DNA of 22,406 nucleotides from a virus (lineage: Duplodnaviria; Heunggongvirae; Uroviricota; Caudoviricetes): the IMG/VR virus record IMGVR_UViG_2537562020_000008. One strand, 5' to 3'. The notes below the pieces were generated by a model. That model saw nothing but the letters and a program-made list of their open reading frames with translations, did not search any database and was not told where the DNA came from. The position numbers were made by a program, and so were the translations under genes. Shown here one piece after another: positions 1-9,002 of the stretch. Position 1 is the stretch's first letter, and every line of letters begins with the position of its first letter.

Positions 1-179
1 CCGAACTGCATACGCTGCAGTTTCGCAACCAGCGCCTTCAGCCGGTTGATTTCGGAAGCATAAGCCGCCACCCGCTGTGAGAGCAGGCGGTTGTATTCGG
101 CCATCTGGCGGATGGTGTCCTGTTGCGTCTGCAACAGTGCCCGCAGGCGGGCATTCTCATGAGCAAGTGAGGTGTCCAT
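1..179 (-). CDS. IS66-family transposase (third ORF), N-terminal fragment only; gene runs off the window
   Basis: Reverse-complement translation from ATG at 179 gives MDTSLAHENARLRALLQTQQDTIRQMAEYNRLLSQRVAAYASEINRLKALVAKLQRMQFG, which matches my recollection of IS66 transposase N-termini (leucine-zipper-like). Confidence 0.75.
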   Translation of the reverse strand, partial: MDTSLAHENARLRALLQTQQDTIRQMAEYNRLLSQRVAAYASEINRLKALVAKLQRMQF

Positions 180-198
180 ATCCTCACTTTACAACGGG

Positions 199-546
199 TT
201 ATATGCGGATGCCAGCGCGTTCCGTTCGTTTCGGGTGCTTCCAGTTGATACCTTCAAGAAGCATGGATAACTGAGCCGGAGTAAGGTGAACCTTTCCATC
301 GCGGGTGACCGGCCAGACGAAGCGGCCCCGCTCCAGGCGTTTGGTGAAGAGGCACAGTCCGTCACTGTCAGCCCACAACACTTTTATCTGGTCACCCCGG
401 CGTCCGCGGAAGATGAACAGGTGTCCGGAGAACGGGTCATCCTTCAGGACGTTCTGAACTTTTGATGCCAGGCCGTTAAAGCCATTTCGCATATCGGTGA
501 TACCTGCAACCAGCCAGATACGCGAACCTGCAGGGAGAGATATCAT
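199..546 (-). CDS. IS66-family Orf2 (TnpB-like accessory protein)
   Basis: 115-aa ORF; the segment GITDMRNGFNGLASKVQNVLKDDPFSGHLFIFRGRRGDQIKVLWADSDGLCLFTKRLERGRFVWP is typical of IS66 Orf2; ATGA overlap with upstream orf1. Confidence 0.85.
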   Translation of the reverse strand: MISLPAGSRIWLVAGITDMRNGFNGLASKVQNVLKDDPFSGHLFIFRGRRGDQIKVLWADSDGLCLFTKRLERGRFVWPVTRDGKVHLTPAQLSMLLEGINWKHPKRTERAGIRI

Positions 547-1223
547 CAGTGGCTGCTCCCTTTTATTTCGCGGATAAGTGTCTGTAATAACGCCGGCGTC
601 AGTTTACCTTTAAGCCTGAGAGTTCCGGCCGGCAGAACCAGCTCACAACACAGACTGTCGGACGGTGTATTTATCTGCTCTGGTTCCTGTGCGGGGGCCG
701 GGATTTTATTATCCGGCTCCGGCGTTAACGTCACGGGAAGCAGTGCCGGCATATTTTTTCCGGAAGGCAGCAGGCCACCTTTCCGGTATTGATGGCGCCA
801 GTTGAAGAGCAGGTTATCGTTGATTCCGTTTTCCCGGGCGATCTGCGCCACACAGGCTCCGGGCTGCAGTGACTGCTCCACTAAGGCGATTTTAAACTCA
901 TAAGGGAAGTTGGGCCGCCGGGGACGTTTTTTTACCACGGGGGCTTCGGATATAACGGTGCTTTCAGGACGTACGACTGGTATCGTGGAAAATTGTCCGT
1001 AAAGGCAGGCATCAAGTTCCTGCTCCGACATGCCTGCGGGCAAAGGCCACGAAAGGCCAGCTCTCCGAAAGCGCACGAACATACTACAAACTGTTGATTT
1101 TGGTACACCCAGGCGACGCCCGGCCACAACCCGGGGTAAATGTTCTTCAAAGTGAAGACGTAAAGCTTCAGTGATCCAGGTCCGGTGTTTCATACGATAG
1201 TGTCCATTAAAAATGATGGACAT
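546..1223 (-). CDS. IS66-family Orf1 (TnpA-like accessory protein, HTH-containing)
   Basis: 225-aa ORF directly upstream of, and overlapping, IS66 Orf2; position and order fit IS66 architecture. True start may be the internal Met (MKHRTW...). Confidence 0.7.
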   Translation of the reverse strand: MSIIFNGHYRMKHRTWITEALRLHFEEHLPRVVAGRRLGVPKSTVCSMFVRFRRAGLSWPLPAGMSEQELDACLYGQFSTIPVVRPESTVISEAPVVKKRPRRPNFPYEFKIALVEQSLQPGACVAQIARENGINDNLLFNWRHQYRKGGLLPSGKNMPALLPVTLTPEPDNKIPAPAQEPEQINTPSDSLCCELVLPAGTLRLKGKLTPALLQTLIREIKGSSH

Positions 1224-1272
1224 TATTTTTGTAGAGCCGGAGGAAACAGACCAGACGGTTTAAATGAGCCGG

Positions 1273-1554
1273 TTACTGCCAAGCCGCAAACACCTGTCCC
1301 GGCTCATTTCCCAGTTCAGGCGATGGCGGCGGTTTTCCATCCCGTCTATCCGGAGGAAACAACACGATCTCCACTGAAGCAGGTGCCGACGTTGGTTTCG
1401 GCAGACGACGTAACTGCTCAACTATTGCTGCGCACGCCGCGCTCTGGAATTTTCGCCCCGCCGCGCTTATCAGGCTCTTACCAGCAAACGCCCCTTTGTT
1501 GGGGTGTCGCCAGTACGTGTTCACGCTGGGCGGAAAAGGCAGGATCAGCTTCAT
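1273..1554 (-). pseudogene. rusA: RusA-family Holliday-junction resolvase, apparently truncated at the C-terminus by the IS66-family insertion
   Basis: N-terminal MKLILPFPPSVNTYWR and ...FPPDRR resemble RusA (LPWPPSNNRYYR ... PDRRRRD). After DRR the sequence becomes a Pro/Gly-rich tail (DGKPPPSPELGNEPGQVFAAWQ) lying where the IS end is expected. Confidence 0.5.
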
Positions 1555-1877
1555 ACTTTCAGGTCCCTCTCATGTAACCAGTGGGTTGCACGCAGCCTTG
1601 CGTTTTCCTCACCGGCAAGCAGTGCGCGGATAATCCCGACCGCCTCGCTGTCGTCGTCCTTCCCCGCGGTATGAAGCGTTATCCCCCGGGCCACGCCACG
1701 CTTTATCGTGATGACGCCTTTTTTCTCCAGTGCGCGAAGATGCTCCACCGCTGCATTCACCGAACGGTATCCCAGCATGGTTGCCACCTCCTGATTGGTT
1801 GGCGGGAAGCCACGTTCTTTCTGATAAGAAATCAGCATATCCAGCACCTGCTGCTGGCATTGAGTTAACGTCGTCAT
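1551..1877 (-). CDS. LexA-like N-terminal DNA-binding domain protein (winged HTH), lacking the S24 peptidase domain
   Basis: 108 aa; TQCQQQVLDMLISYQKERGFPPTNQEVATMLGYRSVNAAVEHLRALEKKGVITI closely parallels the LexA N-terminal domain ([52 protein letters not shown]). ATGA-type overlaps with both neighbours. Confidence 0.6.
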   Translation of the reverse strand: MTTLTQCQQQVLDMLISYQKERGFPPTNQEVATMLGYRSVNAAVEHLRALEKKGVITIKRGVARGITLHTAGKDDDSEAVGIIRALLAGEENARLRATHWLHERDLKV

Positions 1878-2527
1878 GCCGCCATCTCCCTGACCAGTTT
1901 TTCCGCCTGCTGGCGAACCTGCGCCAGAAACGCCTCACCACATGCCTCAAGTTCATCGCGCCCGATGTAGCTGATTGCCGGTCCCTTCCAGGTCTTGTCA
2001 AAAACAGCAATAGCACCAGCGAAAAAAGCTCCTGTCGGTACCTGCTTCTCGTCTTTCGGGATAAACCAGACAGGCAGTTCAAAACCAATACGCCCGCGAA
2101 TAAAAGCAATATGATCTGCATCTTCCGGCCACCACACTTCGCTGGTGGCAGCTTTGATCAGGAAAACATAGCGCCCGCCCTTATCACGCATGGCACTGGC
2201 ATGTTTCATGATGTAACGCATGCCGGTGATGTATTGCCCCTCATGCTGACTGGCGCGGCTGTATGGGGGATTACCAAAGGCAGCACCTTTAAGCTCCGCA
2301 AGACGTTCTGACCAGTCATGCGCCAGCGCGTTGTCTTCCGCCGTGTAATACGCGGCACATTTGGCGTTATCACCGTCAGTGAACAGATCCAGAACAAACG
2401 GGCCAAACAGGGTGTTAATTCCCCAGAAAATGTTGTCCGGCGTGCGCCACTGATCGCCCACTTCCTTCAGTTCATGGGCTGGTTTGTTCCGCAGTTCCAC
2501 CAGCGCCTGGCAATATTTATTACTCAT
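1874..2527 (-). CDS. Phage-type DNA N-6-adenine methyltransferase (Dam family)
   Basis: Contains the NPPY catalytic motif (AAFGNPPYSR) in a context typical of phage Dam-like methyltransferases. Start taken at the ATG at 2527, which shares one nucleotide with the upstream gene stop (TAATG); a longer ORF to 2560 exists. Confidence 0.8.
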   Translation of the reverse strand: MSNKYCQALVELRNKPAHELKEVGDQWRTPDNIFWGINTLFGPFVLDLFTDGDNAKCAAYYTAEDNALAHDWSERLAELKGAAFGNPPYSRASQHEGQYITGMRYIMKHASAMRDKGGRYVFLIKAATSEVWWPEDADHIAFIRGRIGFELPVWFIPKDEKQVPTGAFFAGAIAVFDKTWKGPAISYIGRDELEACGEAFLAQVRQQAEKLVREMAA

Positions 2528-3021
2528 TAAGCCCCCACGTAATTCCCTGACAGATACCACTCTTCACCCGATGCAGCGCGCTTGCTGCTTTTCCGTAAGC
2601 ACCGCTCACGACGCGTCAGAAAATTGTTTCGTTCTGGCTGGGAGTGGCTTTCACGGAATGCCGCCATCCACACGGTTGCAGCACGACGGTATAAGCCCCT
2701 GGACTCCAGTTCTTCCGCCTGGCGGGTCAGGCACAAAATCACACGGGGATCGTTAGTGCCGACATAGAAATTGCGCACAGGTCTGGTTTCACGAACTGGT
2801 TGTGGTTCCGGTTCCTGCGCTCTCTCAGTCAGGCGCGGGAAATGTCTGCGTGTATCTCCTTCACAACGGTGAGCCACACGCCCACTCTGACGTAACTTGC
2901 TTGCTGACTGCAGAACGCGCTGCCGTGAGTAACCGGCAAAAGCATCCGCAATATCTCCGGAAGTACAGCCCGGATGGGCTTCAATGAATTTCTGAACGTC
3001 ATTCAAAAGACTCATGCTCAC
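2527..3021 (-). CDS. Prophage regulatory protein: N-terminal winged-helix-like region and C-terminal PerC-like motif (family uncertain)
   Basis: 164 aa; C-terminal AEELESRGLYRRAATVWMAAF recalls the PerC/Pch signature from memory. GTGA overlap with the upstream replication gene. Confidence 0.45.
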   Translation of the reverse strand: MSMSLLNDVQKFIEAHPGCTSGDIADAFAGYSRQRVLQSASKLRQSGRVAHRCEGDTRRHFPRLTERAQEPEPQPVRETRPVRNFYVGTNDPRVILCLTRQAEELESRGLYRRAATVWMAAFRESHSQPERNNFLTRRERCLRKSSKRAASGEEWYLSGNYVGA

Positions 3022-3959
3022 CCCCTGAATCCTGCCGGGATCTGGCTGTAGTCCACGTTGTCGTAACTGGCTTTGAAGTACGGGTCTTCGCGTTTTTCGG
3101 TGTACGTGCTGACGGACGGCGATAAGCGCAGGGAAAGCTCATCCCATTTTTCCCGCAGCTTCGACGGGCTGAGCACGTTACGGCACCAGAACGGATCGCG
3201 ACTGACGCGGCTGTACATCTCGCAGATTTGTTTATGAGTACGACCATCCTGCACACACATCAGGCGAATTTCGTTTGCCCAGGCTGTCCAGTTCGGTTCT
3301 TTGGGACGAACCACCTCGCCGTCACATTCGGCGGCCTGCTCGTACAGGGCGATGATTTTTTTCCAGAGCCACTGTGCGCAGGTCAAATCATCCTGCGTTC
3401 CCCACTGGCGCTTTTTAGGGCTGAATACAACCGCATCAGGATGGCGAGTTAAAAACTCCTGTTCAGCCGTCTGCGTGTCCGGTTGCGAAGCGTCCGGACG
3501 AGAAGTTTTTTTATCTGACGGATCATGTTTTGATTTTACTGACGGATCCCCGCCAGATTCTGACGGGTGAAAACCCGCTTTTTTGCCAGATTTCGACGCA
3601 TCAAATTTTGACGGGTCAGATTTTGATGCGTCAGATTTTGACGGGTCAGAATCTGACAGTTGAGAAAATGCCGCTGCCTGAAGCTTCGCAACGTTAAGCT
3701 GATAAACATTCGACGCATTGCGGTTACCCTGGCGACGCGCCTTACGCGTTAACCAGCCTTCTGCTTCCAGCCGTGCGATAGCCGTTCTGACGGTACTCAT
3801 CCCCGCGCCAATCTGACGGGCAATGGTTTCAATTGATGGCCAGCACACCCCTTCGTCATTACTGAAATCAGCCAGGCGGGCCATAATTGCCACGCTGGAT
3901 AATTTCATGCCTGACGCTGCGCAACCATCCCATACATAGCCGGTTAATTTAGTGCTCAT
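3018..3959 (-). CDS. Phage replication initiation protein (lambda O-like organiser: N-terminal HTH, repeat-rich linker, C-terminal domain)
   Basis: 313 aa; N-terminal HTH (WPSIETIARQIGAGMSTVRTAIARLEAEGWLTR); central repeats SDSDPSKSDASKSDPSKFDASKS encoded by the iteron DNA; sits downstream of cro and the CII-like gene as in lambdoid phages. Confidence 0.75.
   Translation of the reverse strand: MSTKLTGYVWDGCAASGMKLSSVAIMARLADFSNDEGVCWPSIETIARQIGAGMSTVRTAIARLEAEGWLTRKARRQGNRNASNVYQLNVAKLQAAAFSQLSDSDPSKSDASKSDPSKFDASKSGKKAGFHPSESGGDPSVKSKHDPSDKKTSRPDASQPDTQTAEQEFLTRHPDAVVFSPKKRQWGTQDDLTCAQWLWKKIIALYEQAAECDGEVVRPKEPNWTAWANEIRLMCVQDGRTHKQICEMYSRVSRDPFWCRNVLSPSKLREKWDELSLRLSPSVSTYTEKREDPYFKASYDNVDYSQIPAGFRG
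3513..3664. repeat. Iteron array (about 8 copies of a ~15-bp unit, core TGACGG/TGATGCG) inside the replication gene; putative phage origin
   Basis: Seen directly: attttgacgggtcag / attttgatgcgtcag / attttgacgggtcag / aatctgacagttgag in tandem at 3605..3664, with more degenerate copies at 3513..3604 and an A/T-rich stretch at about 3500..3512. Confidence 0.7.
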
Positions 3960-3968
3960 GACCGACCT

Positions 3969-4307
3969 CTATTTCCCTGAATTTACGACGAAACTGTTCG
4001 AGCGGACTGAAGCACTCATGCTCATAGCCTTCGCGGAGGTAGATAACCCGTTGTGTTTCCGGTTCCCAACGAATGACTCTGACGGGCACTCCGTAGTGAT
4101 CTTTGAACCAGCGGTTAACTTGTCGCAAAGGACTGTCTCCTTCTGCCGGTTGAAATCACCCACAGCCCACTCTGCAAAGCTGTGGGTTACAATTTCCCTG
4201 TCACCTGGTACATTTACTGCATAGCAATACTCCACCTTCGCTTTTCCACCCGGTACAGGAAGCGCAATCAGTTGCGAGCGACGGTAGTGTGTTGTTAAAC
4301 TGTTCAT
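3969..4307 (-). CDS. Hypothetical prophage protein (112 aa)
   Basis: ATGA overlap with the upstream CII-like gene supports translation. An alternative frame with a good RBS and TTG start near 4127 also exists, so the gene model is uncertain. Confidence 0.4.
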
Positions 4308-4855
4308 GCGTTAGTTTCTCCACAGTCACGACACGCCACGGCGCCCGGAGCTGCACACTCGCGGGCGTCATTACTTTCTGAAATGCAAAAGATTTTGTAG
4401 ACCAGTGCTGCATGCTCCTGCAGCTTCGAAATTGAGAGATATAGCTCGTCGTTAATTGCAGTTTTCTCATGCGGTTCCACTACACCGTCTTCGATTGCTG
4501 AACGAATCTGTTTTGAATAACTGCCGATCTGTTCAATGACCTCCAGCAGGCGTTGGTTGATATCGGCGTTGTCCACATCCTCGACATCAGGAAGAGACAC
4601 AAAGACGCCATTTGCAGACTGCGCCACAGCGTCAGCAATGAAGTGAGTTCCACCAGCACGTTGCAAAATCATTGCCCATCCCAGCGGGAAAATCTGATCG
4701 CCATCGGCACGAAGGCGGTTAAATAATGCGTTCTCTGTTACATCCAGCCAGTCAGCAGCTTCAGCGTACCCCCCCGGCAACGCTGCGATAGTTTTTCTGA
4801 CAGCTTTCACGTACCACTCAGGCTGTTTTTCTACTTTCCAGTGATGCTTACCCAC
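4304..4855 (-). CDS. Phage regulatory protein, CII-like (CP76 family) - tentative
   Basis: 183 aa immediately downstream of cro in the rightward operon; overall pattern ([35 protein letters not shown]...) resembles CP76-type CII regulators as I recall them. Confidence 0.5.
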
Positions 4856-5108
4856 GGTTCACCTCCTGTTCCTGTGGTTTAAACCCATTCTGGTTTTGGC
4901 TAGATTGAAAACGTGCCGGATAAAGAATCTGCATTTCGCTGACTTCACCCTTAAAAAAATTGGCTAAACGTTCTGCAAGCTCGATAGATGGAATCTGCTC
5001 CAGCCTCTCAATACGACTCAACGTCGCTGGATTGACTTGAACACCCGCAGCAACATGCTGCAAAGTGAAACCATGCGCCTTACGCACATTTCGTAATGGT
5101 GATTGCAT
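4848..5108 (-). CDS. cro: Cro-like HTH (XRE-family) repressor
   Basis: 86 aa; HTH motif GFTLQHVAAGVQVNPATLSRIERLEQIPSIELAERLANFF; divergent from the cI-like gene across an operator-rich 97-bp spacer. Confidence 0.8.
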   Translation of the reverse strand: MQSPLRNVRKAHGFTLQHVAAGVQVNPATLSRIERLEQIPSIELAERLANFFKGEVSEMQILYPARFQSSQNQNGFKPQEQEVNRG

Positions 5109-5205: not shown

Positions 5206-5898
5206 ATGAACATAGGAAACCGAGTCAGACAACTTCGCCAAGCGAAGAACATGAAAATCGCCGATCTCGCTGAAGCGATAGGAGTAGATGCGGCGAACAT
5301 CTCGCGCTTAGAAACGGGTAAGCAAAAACAATTTACCGAACAAACACTGAGTAATATTGCCAAGAGCTTAGGTGTTGATATTGCTGATCTCTTTACCTCT
5401 GCCCACAAAAGTAATACTGTATATAAAAACAGTAATAATGAGGATGTTGCGCAGGTGAAGGATGTGTTCCGTATTGAAATGCTGGATATCAGTGCCAGTG
5501 CGGGAAATGGCCTTATCCAGGGCGGTGATGTCATTGATGTGATTCATGCCATCGAATACAGAACTGATAATGCTGTATCAATGTTCGGCGGACGACCAGC
5601 CAATCACATCAAAGTTATCAACGTTCGTGGGGACAGTATGTGTCCAACCATTGAGCCCGGAGATCTCATCTTCGTTGATGTCAGCATCAATCAGTTTGAT
5701 GGTGATGGTATATATGTCTTTGGTTTTGATGACAAAATATACGTTAAAAGACTTCAAATGATTCCTGACAAACTGCTGGTGATTTCTGATAACCAGATTT
5801 ACCGTGAATGGGGAATTACTAGCGAAAACGAACACCGATTCATGGTCTTTGGAAAGGTCTTAATCAGTCAGTCGCAAACCCTTAAGAGACATAATTAA
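5206..5898 (+). CDS. cI: cI-like prophage repressor (N-terminal XRE HTH + C-terminal LexA-like S24 peptidase domain)
   Basis: 230 aa; HTH (MKIADLAEAIGVDAANISRLETGK) and C-terminal S24-type region (VRGDSMCPTIEPGDLIFVD ... IYVKRL). Confidence 0.9.
   Translation: MNIGNRVRQLRQAKNMKIADLAEAIGVDAANISRLETGKQKQFTEQTLSNIAKSLGVDIADLFTSAHKSNTVYKNSNNEDVAQVKDVFRIEMLDISASAGNGLIQGGDVIDVIHAIEYRTDNAVSMFGGRPANHIKVINVRGDSMCPTIEPGDLIFVDVSINQFDGDGIYVFGFDDKIYVKRLQMIPDKLLVISDNQIYREWGITSENEHRFMVFGKVLISQSQTLKRHN
5415..5434. promoter_or_regulatory. Near-consensus SOS (LexA) box embedded in the cI coding sequence
   Basis: Seen directly: TACTGTATATAAAAACAGTA versus consensus TACTGTATATATATACAGTA; CTGT-N8-ACAG core intact. 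Confidence 0.5.
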
Positions 5899-6635: not shown

Positions 6636-7072
6636 TTGATTTTCCTTTTATGTATACGGGCTTAAAAGGATACCACCGAGCCTGAAGTGGTGAAAAGACA
6701 GGCACATAACAGCTAAGTATTTTCAACCAAAGAGAATCCTTAGCGTTGTGGTGAATGCGGCTCAGCGCACGCGGGTTAAGGTTGAGGCTGACAGTCGACC
6801 TTCTGTGGATACCCACCCGTCTGGTGTGCAACCTTCGCCAGGCACCGGGAGGCACCCGGCACCACAACTTTATGCTGTGTGTAGTCCTGGCGGTACCAGT
6901 TTGTACCCTTGCTTCCGGCTGGTACCGTCCTTTTTACAAAACAGAGAAGAGCATCACCGGACGACGGGCTCATAACCCAATCCATCCGGGCGGCTGCCAC
7001 CGCAGGTGTTCTTCTCTGTTTTGTGGAGAAACTAATCGGCCTTGCAGGGTCGATATGATGAGGAGCAGCAAA

Positions 7073-7447
7073 ATGGCTAGCGAACGCAGTACTGATGTAC
7101 AGGCATTTATCGGGGAGCTGGACGGCGGCGTATTTGAAACCAAAATCGGCGCAGTTCTCAGTGAAGTCGCTTCCGGTGTGATGAACAGGAGGGACAGCTG
7201 ATAGAAACAGAAGCCACTGGAGCACCTCAAAAACACCATCATACACTAAATCAGTAAGTTGGCAGCATCACCCAAACTCTCATATGTTCGCCCGACTAAC
7301 CGCGGGAAAATTTCCGAAGAAGACACCACCGAAACGCCGATGTATGTCAATCGCGGTGGTCGCCTGACTATTCTGCAGGAAGACCAGGGACAATTACTGA
7401 CTCTTGCCGGTGAACCTGACGGAAAACTCCGCGCAGCAGGTCATTAA
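7073..7447 (+). pseudogene. Prophage gene split by a ~90-bp IS1-end remnant (5' part 7073..7182, 3' part 7273..7447)
   Basis: RBS gaggagcagcaaaATG at 7073; 5' fragment MASERSTDVQAFIGELDGGVFETKIGAVLSEVASGV stops inside the IS1-derived segment; 3' fragment KLSYVRPTNRGKISEED...GKLRAAGH resumes in the same frame after it. Confidence 0.4.
7183..7272 (-). mobile_element. IS1 left-end remnant (IRL plus ~65 bp; the rest of IS1 absent)
   Basis: Reverse complement reads GGTGATGCTGCCAACTTACTGATTTAGTGTATGATGGTGTTTTTGAGGTGCTCCAGTGGCTTCTGTTTCTATCAGCTGTCCCTCCTGTTCA, matching the IS1 terminus and start of insA as I recall it; similarity ends near 7183. Confidence 0.8.
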
Positions 7448-7512
7448 TATCGTTCTTAATTAACTGATTATTTATCTCATCACTGAATATCTTTATATAG
7501 TGAGGACTTATT

Positions 7513-8337
7513 ATGTCTCAGAACTTAGACGCAACCGCAATTAATCAAATCCATGCCCTTATTTCTGCTCAGGGTGTTAATGAAATTATCAGTAAGATTG
7601 GTGCCGATGCTGTGGCATTGCCTGAGAATTTCCGCATTCATGATCTGGAAAAATTTAATTTAAATCGCTTCCGTTTCCGTGGTGCGCTTTCCACTGCCAG
7701 CATCGATGACTTTACCCGTTATTCTAAAGATCTTGCAGATGAAGGCACCCGCTGCTTTATCGATGCTGATAATATGCGAGCCGTCAGTGTGCTTAACCTG
7801 GGTACTATTGATGAACCAGGTCACGCAGATAACACCGCCACTCTCAAACTGAAAAAGACAGCACCGTTCTCTGCCCTGTTGTCTGTTAACGGCGAGCGTA
7901 ACTCCCAGAAGTCACTGGCAGAATGGATTGAAGACTGGGCCGACTACCTTGTGGGCTTTGATGCTAATGGTGACGCCATTCAGGCAACAAAAGCGGCTGC
8001 GGCGGTCCGTAAAATCACGATTGAAGCAAACCAGACCGCTGATTTTGAAGACAATGACTTCAGCGGCAAACGCTCTCTGATGGAGTCTGTCGAAGCGAAG
8101 ACCAAAGACATTATGCCAGTGGCATTTGAATTTAAATGCATTCCGTTTGAAGGTCTGAAAGAACGTCCGTTTAAATTACGCCTCAGCATTATCACTGGCG
8201 ATCGTCCGGTACTGGTTCTGCGCATTATTCAGCTGGAGGCGGTGCAGGAAGAAATGGCTAACGAATTTCGTGATCTGCTTGTTGAGAAATTCAAGGACAG
8301 CAAAGTAGAAACCTTTATTGGTACTTTCACCGCCTGA
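7513..8337 (+). CDS. yfdQ: YfdQ-like prophage protein (DUF2303 family)
   Basis: 274 aa, the length of the CPS-53 prophage protein YfdQ, and followed by YfdR/S/T-like genes in the same order. Confidence 0.7.
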
Positions 8338-8465
8338 TTTCATTACTGCAAATGCCCCTGCGGGGGCATTTATGGAAACGTAATTAACTCAATAATCGCC
8401 TGATGGCGAGGGTTTTCTTTAACCAAAATTCAGCGCGGTGCAGCGCATATAAAGTGGAGAACAAA

Positions 8466-9002
8466 ATGTCATTTATTAAAACTTTTTCCGGGAAGCATTT
8501 TTATTATGACAAGATAAATAAAGACGACATCGTTATTAACGATATCGCGTTTTCCCTTTCAAATATCTGTCGCTTTGCCGGTCATCTTTCGCACTTCTAC
8601 AGCGTCGCCCAACATGCGGTTCTTTGCAGCCAGCTGGTGCCGCAGGAATTTGCTTTTGAAGCGTTAATGCATGATGCAACAGAAGCGTATTGCCAGGACA
8701 TTCCCGCACCACTGAAACGCCTTCTTCCTGACTATAAACGGATGGAAGAAAAAATAGACGCCGTAATCCGTGAGAAATACGGGTTACCTCCTGTTATGAG
8801 CACGCCAGTGAAATATGCCGATCTCATCATGCTGGCAACCGAACGCCGCGATCTCGGGCTTGATGATGGCTCTTTCTGGCCTGTACTGGAAGGTATCCCG
8901 GCAACAGAGATGTTCAACGTGATTCCACTGGCACCGGGCCATGCCTACGGGATGTTTATGGAACGCTTTAACGAGTTATCGGAGTTACGCAAATGCGCAT
9001 GA
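8466..9002 (+). CDS. yfdR: YfdR-like HD-domain protein (5'-deoxynucleotidase family)
   Basis: 178 aa from the ATG at 8466 (RBS GGAGAA); HD-like motif region (FAGHLSHFYSVAQHA ... ALMHDATEAY). The ORF track extends upstream to 8403. Confidence 0.7.
   Translation: MSFIKTFSGKHFYYDKINKDDIVINDIAFSLSNICRFAGHLSHFYSVAQHAVLCSQLVPQEFAFEALMHDATEAYCQDIPAPLKRLLPDYKRMEEKIDAVIREKYGLPPVMSTPVKYADLIMLATERRDLGLDDGSFWPVLEGIPATEMFNVIPLAPGHAYGMFMERFNELSELRKCA

What the first reader, a model, noticed from the sequence alone, without database searches (positions are those of the whole stretch)
1551..1877. Prophage-encoded LexA DNA-binding domain without the autocleavage domain
The 108-aa protein matches the LexA N-terminal winged HTH almost motif for motif but ends before the S24 peptidase domain, so it could not be inactivated by RecA-stimulated autocleavage. 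Such a protein could act as a non-cleavable LexA mimic at SOS boxes, including the one inside cI, or as a dedicated phage regulator. It sits in a translationally coupled block with the Dam methyltransferase and the RusA-like gene.
Basis: partly seen in the sequence, partly recalled or inferred. Interest (0 to 1): 0.5.

Follow-up and report, generated by a model that had tools for sequence, protein, structure and literature searches.

The report
Phage LexA look-alike lacking protease domain
A defective prophage carries an intact, conserved gene for a small protein that copies the DNA-binding head of the bacterial DNA-damage repressor LexA but lacks the part that lets damage signals destroy it; this gene family is common and already annotated, but nobody appears to have tested its function.

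Summary
The ORF at 1551-1877 (-) encodes 108 aa with a complete LexA-type winged helix (Pfam PF01726, E=3e-19; 43% identical to E. coli LexA residues 1-90). The model fits the LexA-DNA crystal structure at 1.0 A. There is no S24 peptidase domain. It is not a truncated gene: it matches PHROG 362 end to end, pN/pS is 0.10 over 48 alleles, and the 1.9-kb block around it occurs in at least 1606 of 5426 complete E. coli genomes and in phages SfII, SfV, mEp460, cdtI and Stx2a/Stx2c. After the wing comes a family-specific helical hairpin, probably for dimerisation.

Four of LexA's five DNA-contact residues are kept (Glu44 is Val). In a sister clade (Klebsiella, Enterobacter), five of five loci place the gene behind a canonical SOS-box promoter, in two of them together with dinI. 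Related phages carry SOS boxes in cI, ahead of a KilA-N gene and at a late methylase gene. The gene sits directly upstream of rusA in ten of twelve diverse contexts.

The best reading is an uncleavable LexA paralogue that re-occupies SOS boxes while RecA is active. This is inferred, not shown. The only characterised analogue is GIL01 gp6, which arose independently. Here the prophage is a remnant, and IS66 cuts rusA.

The parts
1551..1877 (-). Gene for the 108-aa stand-alone LexA-type DNA-binding protein (RefSeq WP_000210155.1, 'LexA family transcriptional regulator'; PHROG 362)
   Evidence: pN/pS is 0.10 over 48 distinct alleles and none is disrupted.
1674..1877 (-). Residues 1-68: LexA-type winged helix-turn-helix (helices 6-22, 28-35, 40-52; strands 56-58 and 66-68)
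   Evidence: PF01726 covers 1-65 of 65. Fit to 3jso_B is rmsd 1.0 A.
1722..1763 (-). Residues 39-52: recognition helix SVNAAVEHLRALEK. E. coli LexA has [14 protein letters not shown]. Contact residues S39, N41, A42 and E45 are kept; E44 is Val.
   Evidence: Alignments. The contact-residue list is from PMC3091678.
1566..1652 (-). Residues 76-104: family-specific C-terminal helical hairpin (helices about 77-88 and 93-103) after a low-confidence linker at 71-75. It is the presumed dimerisation element.
   Evidence: AF2 result. The pattern is conserved in relatives of 38-50% identity. No PDB sequence match was found.
1874..2527 (-). Phage N6-adenine methyltransferase (Dam). Its stop overlaps the start of the LexA-like gene (ATGA).
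   Evidence: PF05869 E=1e-45 and TIGR01712 at 256 bits.
1342..1554 (-). 5' fragment of rusA (residues 1-71). Its start overlaps the stop of the LexA-like gene (ATGA), and it is cut by the IS66-family element.
   Evidence: PHROG 34 hit. RefSeq marks it as a pseudogene. tblastn shows 98.6% identity to SfII RusA residues 1-71.
1..1223 (-). IS66-family insertion sequence, partly inside the window: tnpA 546-1223, tnpB 199-546, and the 3' end of tnpC. It replaces everything downstream of rusA codon 71. The exact IS boundary between 1223 and 1342 was not mapped.
2527..5108 (-). The rest of the early (pR-type) operon that precedes the gene: cro 4848-5108, ymfL/cII-like 4304-4855, DUF4222 3949-4128, O-like replication gene 3018-3959, and PerC-family yfdN 2527-3021. 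Genes overlap or abut. The consensus scan found no promoter or terminator on this strand between cro and the gene.
5415..5434 (.). Canonical SOS box TACTGTATATAAAAACAGTA inside the cI-like repressor gene (5206-5898, +), in the linker between its HTH and S24 domains. It is the only strong SOS box in the window and a candidate target.
   Evidence: PWM score 26.4. It is identical to the umuD and sbmC operators.

Best explanation
The gene encodes a small sequence-specific DNA-binding protein derived from a gammaproteobacterial LexA. It has a LexA winged helix (residues 1-68), a flexible linker, and a family-specific helical hairpin (residues about 76-104) that most likely replaces the S24 domain as the dimerisation element. 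It has no Ser-Lys protease and no conserved cleavage site, so RecA-ssDNA filaments cannot inactivate it. It is made only when the prophage's early operon is derepressed, as a delayed-early 'nin-region' gene translationally coupled to dam and rusA. Its most likely action is to bind CTGT-N8-ACAG SOS operators and restore repression there while host LexA is being destroyed. Candidate targets are phage-borne boxes (inside cI, ahead of KilA-N antirepressor-like genes, dinI-like morons, a late methylase) and possibly host SOS genes. In effect it would be an SOS off-switch that DNA-damage signalling cannot reverse. Shown: the fold, the domain content, conservation, purifying selection, gene order, and the presence and position of the SOS boxes. 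Inferred: dimerisation through the hairpin, binding to SOS boxes, and repression. In this particular strain the prophage is a remnant (rusA cut by IS66; Q, lysis and structural genes absent), so the gene can only be expressed if the resident cI is inactivated.
For: Fold and domain content are established. The gene is full length and constrained: PHROG 362 matches 1-106 of 106 at E=4e-59, and pN/pS is 0.10 over 48 alleles. The 1.9-kb block around it (window 1200-3100) covers at least 80% of the query in 1606 of 5426 complete E. coli genomes, and the protein is found in 67 phage records. The recognition helix keeps S39, N41, A42 and E45 of LexA's five contact residues. Among CTxT-N8-AxAG palindromes, only CTGT-N8-ACAG is enriched in four complete phages carrying the gene: 12 observed against 2.7 expected, and 0-1 for the other three variants. 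In the P0134/P0175 sister clade (38-41% identical), all five loci (L012, L015, L096, L097, L098) have a canonical SOS box (PWM 20.8-27.2) 440-621 bp upstream. In L012 and L015 the box follows a terminator-like hairpin and overlaps a TTGCA(A/T)-N17 promoter-like site by eye, and L098 has the same promoter-like site. In Klebsiella (L096, L097) a dinI-like ORF sits directly behind the box, with Pfam DinI confirmed in L096. The background is zero such boxes in 783 kb of control DNA and 0.01 per shuffled set of five loci. In 80 near-identical loci, 31 carry the cI-internal box, 12 carry a box directly after rusA ahead of a KilA-N gene, and 18 carry a box about 4-6 kb downstream with the sequence found at the start of the late methylase gene in SfV, mEp460 and cdtI. 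All 10 distinct phages with the SfII-type cI also have the gene. From my own recollection of the literature, not checked here: the isolated LexA N-terminal domain still binds operators and dimerises on DNA (Kim and Little 1992), and non-cleavable LexA mutants block SOS induction.
Against: No binding or reporter data exist for any member in the literature I could search. Glu44, one of the five LexA contact residues, is Val here and non-acidic in 8 of 10 tail-bearing relatives, whereas it is Glu in 14 of 19 LexA-length relatives. Specificity or affinity may therefore differ. The SOS boxes near the gene are fully explained by host LexA alone, so their presence does not show that this protein binds them. 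The co-occurrence with the cI box may simply reflect linkage, since the two lie 4 kb apart in one module. In the E. coli clade there is no SOS box next to the gene itself. Dimerisation through the hairpin could not be modelled because no multimer prediction was available. The one characterised phage LexA-domain protein, GIL01 gp6, turned out to be an activator with its own operator rather than a LexA mimic.
Confidence: 0.45

Rival explanations
1. It is a dedicated phage regulator with its own operator, not SOS boxes. By analogy with GIL01 gp6, it might activate or time expression of later phage genes such as Q, the KilA-N gene or the late region.
For: gp6 is a truncated LexA homologue that binds a distinct palindrome and activates the late promoter P3. 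Glu44 is systematically replaced in this family. The family-specific tail could contact RNA polymerase or set a different half-site spacing.
Against: The rest of the recognition helix is almost identical to E. coli LexA. No alternative CTxT-N8-AxAG palindrome is enriched in the phages. The gene has no intergenic region of its own in the E. coli clade where an operator could lie. Only one palindrome geometry was tested.
Confidence: 0.25
2. It is an accessory factor of the RusA Holliday-junction resolvase or of the dam-rusA DNA-metabolism cassette. It would either be a local autoregulator that limits RusA expression to a pulse, or a DNA-targeting partner, rather than a global SOS regulator.
For: The gene lies directly upstream of rusA, usually with a 4-base overlap. 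This holds in the window, SfII, SfV, mEp460, cdtI and in 10 of 12 diverse contexts, including two RusA types too different to cross-hit by tblastn. In the sister clade an SOS box, the gene and rusA form one apparent transcription unit.
Against: Two Klebsiella loci (L096, L097) have the gene without rusA. From my own knowledge, not checked here: RusA works alone as a homodimer, and many phages carry rusA without this gene. Conserved base-contact residues argue for sequence-specific rather than structure-specific binding. The autoregulator version still requires SOS-box binding, so it overlaps with the best explanation.
Confidence: 0.2
3. It is a decaying fragment of a captured lexA gene with no function.
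For: It lies in a defective prophage beside an IS-disrupted rusA. Annotators have given it inconsistent names, including 'RecA-mediated autopeptidases' and 'SOS-response repressor and protease LexA'.
Against: pN/pS is 0.10 over 48 intact alleles. The length is conserved at 104-118 aa, and the C-terminal hairpin is conserved down to 38% identity across Escherichia, Citrobacter, Salmonella, Hafnia, Klebsiella and Enterobacter. It is present in phages isolated as virions or by induction.
Confidence: 0.03

Closest known systems
E. coli LexA repressor (N-terminal domain; PDB 1lea, 3jso)
   Same: It has the same winged helix-turn-helix fold: rmsd 1.0 A, 50% identity over 68 residues, 43% over 90. 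The recognition helix is nearly identical, with S39, N41, A42 and E45 kept.
   Different: It lacks the S24 peptidase domain and the Ser119/Lys156 dyad. The Ala84-Gly85-like 'AG' is not conserved in relatives and lies in a predicted helix. Glu44 is Val. A helical hairpin takes the place of the LexA dimerisation domain.
GIL01 gp6 (Bacillus thuringiensis tectivirus; Fornelos et al. 2018, PMC6182141)
   Same: It is a temperate-phage protein consisting of a LexA DNA-binding domain without the cleavage domain, encoded among early genes.
   Different: gp6 has 66 aa and no C-terminal hairpin. It derives from a Bacillus LexA and shows no detectable BLASTP similarity to this protein, so the two arose independently. 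gp6 recognises its own palindrome and activates a late promoter. Here the LexA recognition helix is largely retained, and repression at SOS boxes is the more likely action.
Non-cleavable LexA mutants (LexA3/Ind-, G85D, S119A) and the LexA(1-84) cleavage fragment
   Same: Both are LexA DNA-binding activity that RecA cannot remove. From my own recollection, not checked here: the mutants keep the SOS regulon shut, and the fragment keeps residual operator binding.
   Different: Those are laboratory mutants or a short-lived cleavage product. This protein is a naturally selected, phage-borne gene with its own dimerisation element.
PHROG 362 / RefSeq 'LexA family protein' of lambdoid phages (SfII_44, SfV orf42, mEp460_046, cdtI orf48)
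   Same: It belongs to the same family at 94-99% identity and sits in the same position between dam and rusA.
   Different: There is no difference in kind. The copy here sits in an IS-disrupted prophage remnant. No member has a tested function in the literature I could search.

Membership tests
LexA repressor proper (TIGR00498 equivalog) | N-terminal LexA-type winged helix-turn-helix | tested here: met
   PF01726 covers 1-65 of 65 at E=3e-19. The model fits 3jso_B at rmsd 1.0 A.
LexA repressor proper (TIGR00498 equivalog) | C-terminal S24 peptidase domain with the Ser-Lys dyad | tested here: not met
   There is no Peptidase_S24 hit. The protein ends at residue 108. TIGR00498 is matched only over positions 1-91 of 203.
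LexA repressor proper (TIGR00498 equivalog) | Ala-Gly self-cleavage site in the linker | tested here: not met
   An 'AGE' aligns with LexA A84-G85-E86. However, it is replaced in relatives by RE, RK, GG, DQ, EE, CS, DT and EL, and it lies in a confidently predicted helix.
LexA repressor proper (TIGR00498 equivalog) | Score above the curated family cutoff | tested here: not met
   The score is 70.1 bits against a cutoff of 110.95.
Pfam LexA_DNA_bind (PF01726) | Score above the gathering threshold over the whole domain | tested here: met
   The score is 69 bits against 23.7, covering the whole profile.
PHROG 362 (phage 'transcriptional repressor') | End-to-end match to the family profile | tested here: met
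   E=3.6e-59, with protein residues 1-108 matching profile positions 1-106 of 106.
PHROG 362 (phage 'transcriptional repressor') | Repressor activity, as the family name implies | not testable with these tools
   The name is an annotation only. No experimental paper was found.
GIL01 gp6-like phage LexA homologues | Stand-alone LexA DNA-binding domain encoded by a temperate phage | tested here: met
GIL01 gp6-like phage LexA homologues | Sequence relatedness to gp6 | tested here: not met
   BLASTP finds no alignment at E<=100. The two are independent captures of different host LexA proteins.
GIL01 gp6-like phage LexA homologues | Activation of a late promoter from its own palindromic site | not testable with these tools
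   This needs EMSA and reporter assays.
SOS-box-binding proteins (functional LexA mimic) | LexA base-contact residues S39, N41, A42, E44, E45 | tested here: inconclusive
   Four of five are kept and E44 is Val.
SOS-box-binding proteins (functional LexA mimic) | Dimer able to span CTGT-N8-ACAG | not testable with these tools
   Only a monomer model was possible. The conserved amphipathic hairpin and the flexible linker are compatible with a dimer.

The most novel reading that the evidence does not exclude
Lambdoid prophages of Enterobacterales carry a naturally evolved, RecA-proof LexA paralogue. It would be expressed either on prophage derepression or directly from an SOS-box promoter, in Klebsiella together with the RecA-coprotease inhibitor DinI. 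It would then re-impose repression on SOS operators while RecA is still active. This would switch off phage-borne SOS-controlled genes (KilA-N antirepressor-like genes, dinI morons, a late methylase, and the site inside cI) and the host SOS regulon, including mutagenic polymerases, competing prophages and colicins. If so, it is a phage-encoded SOS off-switch module genetically coupled to the RusA resolvase.
Probability: 0.35. Interest if true: 0.7.

Novelty: new variant of a known kind. Interest (0 to 1): 0.45.

Why it matters
If the protein does occupy SOS boxes, then the roughly 30% of complete E. coli genomes that carry this gene block (including Stx2a/Stx2c, cdt and Shigella serotype-converting phages) encode a regulator that can override the host DNA-damage response during induction. 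That would bear on several questions: the timing of Shiga-toxin phage induction, SOS-driven mutagenesis and antibiotic tolerance in lysogens, competition between co-resident prophages, and the logic of LexA-controlled antirepressors. It would also be a second, independently evolved case of a phage capturing the LexA DNA-binding head, after GIL01 gp6, probably with the opposite regulatory sign. The hypothesis can be tested with simple EMSA and reporter experiments. If the protein instead has a private operator, the finding is an ordinary uncharacterised phage regulator.

Tried and rejected
(1) Cleavage-site relic or pseudo-substrate for S24 proteases. BLAST and HMMER align 'LLAGE' with LexA 'VAAGE'. 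The AG is not conserved in relatives and lies in a predicted helix, so I rejected this idea.

(2) Altered half-site. I counted CTAT, CTCT and CTTT variants of the N8 palindrome in four complete phages. None is enriched (0, 0 and 1 against about 2.5 expected).

(3) Similarity of the C-terminal hairpin to solved structures. A profile search of the PDB gave nothing meaningful, and Foldseek matched only the winged helix.

(4) Defence-system membership. PADLOC returned only a weak, irrelevant hit.

(5) Homology to GIL01 gp6. None is detectable by BLASTP.

(6) Species-wide genome scan for distant relatives. Only three loci (L096-L098) were family members.

(7) IMG/VR scan. It returned only near-identical copies at 97-99% identity. 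These were useful for pN/pS and SOS-box positions but not for diversity.

(8) An independent promoter for dam and this gene. The -35 and -10 elements annotated in SfV lie in a conserved coding stretch, are weak, and the -35 is altered in the window. The consensus scan finds no promoter. This remains unresolved.

(9) Literature. Four searches for this family found no functional study. The LexA-DNA structure paper was not held in the library, so the contact residues are cited second-hand from PMC3091678.

(10) A case-control test of SOS-box numbers in lambdoid phages with and without the gene was not run. Shared modules would confound it.

Full report
**Observation.** The minus-strand ORF 1551-1877 encodes 108 aa.
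- Pfam assigns residues 1-65 to the whole LexA_DNA_bind domain (PF01726, E=3e-19). No Peptidase_S24 match appears.
- NCBIfam's lexA equivalog matches only its first 91 of 203 positions and scores 70 bits against a cutoff of 111.
- BLASTP against E. coli LexA gives 43% identity over residues 1-90.
- An AlphaFold2 model built on 20 family members (pLDDT 84.8) superposes on LexA bound to operator DNA (3jso) at 1.0 A over 68 residues.
- The ATGA overlaps with dam (1874-1877) and rusA (1551-1554) are visible in the sequence.
- A GGGAG Shine-Dalgarno-like motif precedes the start codon. I read this from the sequence.

One correction is that rusA is only a 71-codon stump (1342-1554) cut by an IS66-family element.

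**Context.** The window matches ETEC O6:H16-type chromosomes at 99.9%. It covers a degraded lambdoid prophage integrated next to tRNA-Thr and proA.
- The immunity region is of the SfII type, 99.4% identical.
- On the minus strand the order is cro, ymfL/cII-like, DUF4222, O-like replication gene, PerC-family yfdN, dam, the LexA-like gene, then the rusA stump. All of these overlap or abut.
- The consensus scan finds no promoter or terminator between them.
- Downstream, IS66 replaces everything. Q, lysis and structural genes are absent from the annotated neighbourhood.

The gene is therefore a delayed-early 'nin-region' gene, kept silent by the intact cI-like repressor (5206-5898).

**A real gene family, not a truncation.** PHROG 362 matches end to end, 1-106 of 106 at E=4e-59.
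- The 1.9-kb block covers at least 80% of the query in 1606 of 5426 complete E. coli genomes.
- The protein occurs at 94-99% identity in SfII, SfV (orf42), SfIV, mEp460, cdtI, 2H10, Stx2a and Stx2c phages and others.
- Across 48 distinct alleles from 81 copies, none is disrupted and pN/pS is 0.10.
- A scan of 1.84 billion representative proteins found short relatives of 104-135 aa at 38-54% identity that align through the C terminus.
- In the alignment the winged helix is followed by a conserved pattern, EAxxIIRALLxxxxxAxxRAxxWLxxxG. AlphaFold predicts this as a confident helical hairpin after a low-confidence linker.
- No solved structure resembles the hairpin by sequence.
- The 'AGE' that aligns with LexA's Ala84-Gly85-Glu86 is not conserved in these relatives and lies inside a predicted helix. 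It is not a retained cleavage site.

**DNA-recognition residues.** LexA's DNA-contacting residues are Ser39, Asn41, Ala42, Glu44 and Glu45 (PMC3091678).
- The recognition helix here is SVNAAVEHLRALEK, against [14 protein letters not shown] in LexA. Four of the five contacts are kept and Glu44 is Val.
- Among remote relatives, position 44 is Glu in 14 of 19 LexA-length proteins but non-acidic in 8 of 10 tail-bearing short proteins.
- A CTGT-type half-site is thus the best guess, with possibly changed affinity or specificity at one base.

**Genomic associations.** Gene order in the four complete phages is replication gene, PerC-like gene, dam, this gene, rusA, KilA-N gene, hypothetical gene, Q. 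cdtI lacks a separately annotated PerC-like gene.
- Distant homologues (38-50% identity) sit in the same place. They are directly upstream of rusA in L006-L010, L013-L015 and L098. One small gene intervenes in L011 and L012. There is no rusA in two Klebsiella loci.
- A DNA methyltransferase of one class or another often precedes the gene.

I scanned with a weight matrix built from 20 E. coli SOS boxes that I listed from memory. Some of them are confirmed by Table 4 of PMC3009722.
- The window has exactly one strong box, TACTGTATATAAAAACAGTA at 5415-5434 inside cI. It is identical to the umuD and sbmC operators.
- In the P0134/P0175 sister clade, all five loci (L012, L015, L096, L097, L098) carry a box scoring 20.8-27.2 at 440-621 bp upstream of the gene.
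- In L012 and L015 the box follows a terminator-like hairpin and overlaps a TTGCA(A/T)-N17 promoter-like site, which I read by eye. L098 has the same promoter-like site.
- Behind the box comes a conserved 75-85-aa ORF of unknown function. In Klebsiella a dinI-like ORF comes first, confirmed as DinI by Pfam in L096 at E=3e-25.
- Control DNA had no box of score 20 or more in 783 kb, and shuffles gave 0.01 per five loci.
- In 80 near-identical IMG/VR loci, 31 have the cI-internal box. Twelve have TACTGTATTTATGAACAGTG immediately after rusA ahead of a KilA-N gene. Eighteen have a box 4-6 kb downstream.
- The downstream box sequence lies at the start of the late-region methylase-like gene in SfV, mEp460 and cdtI.
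- Of the four CTxT-N8-AxAG palindromes, only CTGT-N8-ACAG is enriched in the four complete phages, 12 observed against 2.7 expected.
- All ten distinct phages in the phage collection with the SfII-type cI also carry the gene. The two features lie only about 4 kb apart, so common descent is a sufficient explanation.

**Interpretation.**
- Shown: this is a stand-alone, selected, LexA-derived winged-helix protein with a private C-terminal hairpin. It is RecA-proof because it has no protease domain. It is expressed from the early lytic operon or, in a sister clade, from an SOS-box promoter. It is embedded in phage genomes that carry canonical SOS boxes.
- Inferred: the hairpin dimerises the protein, the dimer binds SOS boxes, and binding re-represses those promoters while host LexA is being cleaved.
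- The dinI-containing cassette in Klebsiella fits an SOS-damping role. From my own recollection of the literature, not checked here, DinI inhibits RecA coprotease activity.
- I put about 0.45 on this reading.

The rivals are as follows.
- A dedicated regulator with its own operator, as for GIL01 gp6: 0.25.
- A local partner or autoregulator of the rusA cassette, suggested by the strong synteny: 0.2.
- A dead fragment: 0.03, contradicted by the conservation data.

The SOS boxes themselves are fully accounted for by host LexA, so none of the associations proves that this protein binds them.

**Comparison with known systems.** This is not a LexA orthologue. The S24 domain, the cleavage site and the family score all fail.
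- It is a member of Pfam PF01726 and of PHROG 362.
- The only characterised phage-encoded LexA-domain protein I found is GIL01 gp6. It has 66 aa, no hairpin, and activates a late promoter from its own palindrome (PMC6182141).
- gp6 shows no detectable pairwise similarity to this protein. The two are independent captures of different host LexA proteins.
- Four literature searches found no functional study of the enterobacterial family.

**Verdict.** The sequence feature is real and already annotated in databases under inconsistent names, some of them wrong, such as 'RecA-mediated autopeptidases'. Its function is untested.
- New here are the conserved C-terminal hairpin, the systematic loss of Glu44, the tight coupling to rusA, and the SOS-box promoter with dinI in the sister clade.
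- Together these make the uncleavable-LexA-mimic hypothesis concrete and cheaply testable.
- Interest is moderate at 0.45. I classify it as a new variant of a known kind.

Noticed in passing
window 5415-5434 (inside cI-like gene 5206-5898, +): A near-consensus SOS box, identical to the E. coli umuD and sbmC operators, lies in the linker-coding part of the S24-type repressor gene. It is kept at the same place in SfII, mEp460 and the distant locus L006 (box at 836-855). The spacer and the encoded amino acids differ between alleles (VYK, VCK, VFI), which suggests selection on the DNA motif itself. It is present in 31 of 80 related loci. Its role is unknown: a roadblock on cI transcription, an internal promoter, or an antisense promoter.
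   Followed up: partly
window 1-1342; L001 16601-20024: An IS66-family element (tnpA, tnpB, tnpC) has cut rusA after codon 71 and replaced the rest of the prophage's right arm. No Q, lysis or structural genes remain. An IS21-like element (ISEc62, window about 7035-9001) interrupts the left arm. The prophage is a remnant, yet cI, cro and the whole early operon up to the LexA-like gene are intact.
   Followed up: partly
L026 6014-6033 (and L038, L042-L044, L049, L050, L053, L056, L060, L076, L090): In 12 related prophages a strong SOS box (TACTGTATTTATGAACAGTG) sits in the short gap after rusA, directly ahead of a KilA-N-domain gene. This looks like a LexA-controlled antirepressor-type gene immediately downstream of the LexA-like gene.
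   Followed up: partly
L003 34170-34189, L004 41021-41040, L005 44083-44102, L015 7739-7758: A conserved SOS box ((T/C)ACTGTAAAAATAAACAGTG) overlaps the first codons of the late-region methylase-like gene between Q and the lysis genes in SfV, mEp460 and cdtI. In L015 it lies just upstream of an N6_N4_Mtase gene. mEp460 and cdtI also have tandem SOS boxes ahead of a gene that is annotated as DinI-like in mEp460.
   Followed up: no
L012 4713-4961, L015 4724-4951, L096 5697-5954, L097, L098: A conserved 75-85-aa ORF with no Pfam match always lies between the SOS-box promoter and the LexA-like gene in the Klebsiella/Enterobacter clade. A second conserved 67-aa ORF follows the gene in L012 and L096-L098. 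Both are of unknown function.
   Followed up: partly
proteins P0129, P0131, P0143, P0148, P0150, P0159, P0161 and others: Many remote relatives contain two LexA DNA-binding domains in one chain of 140-350 aa. They may be single-chain pseudo-dimers, a different way of dispensing with the S24 dimerisation domain.
   Followed up: no
L003 27346, L004 33200, L005 36220: The palindrome CTGTAAGTAACCACAG is conserved about 100 bp inside the gene after the cII-like ORF in SfV, mEp460 and cdtI. That gene is annotated Rha or antirepressor in mEp460 and cdtI, and 'immunity region' in SfV. Its weight-matrix score is low because the spacer is GC-rich. It could be a weak LexA site or simply conserved coding sequence.
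   Followed up: no
window 2527-3021 (-): The gene upstream of dam is a 164-aa PerC-family protein (yfdN). Its C-terminal PerC/ANR-like segment is residues 98-151, and its N-terminal half gives only weak hits to wHTH/MarR-type profiles (PHROG 1687, BilQ). It is a second uncharacterised putative regulator in the same overlapping block.
   Followed up: no
public annotations of the same gene: Database names for this 108-aa protein include 'RecA-mediated autopeptidases', 'SOS-response repressor and protease LexA' and 'LexA repressor'. These are wrong, since no protease domain exists. The neighbouring Dam is repeatedly mislabelled 'phosphoadenosine phosphosulfate reductase'.
   Followed up: yes
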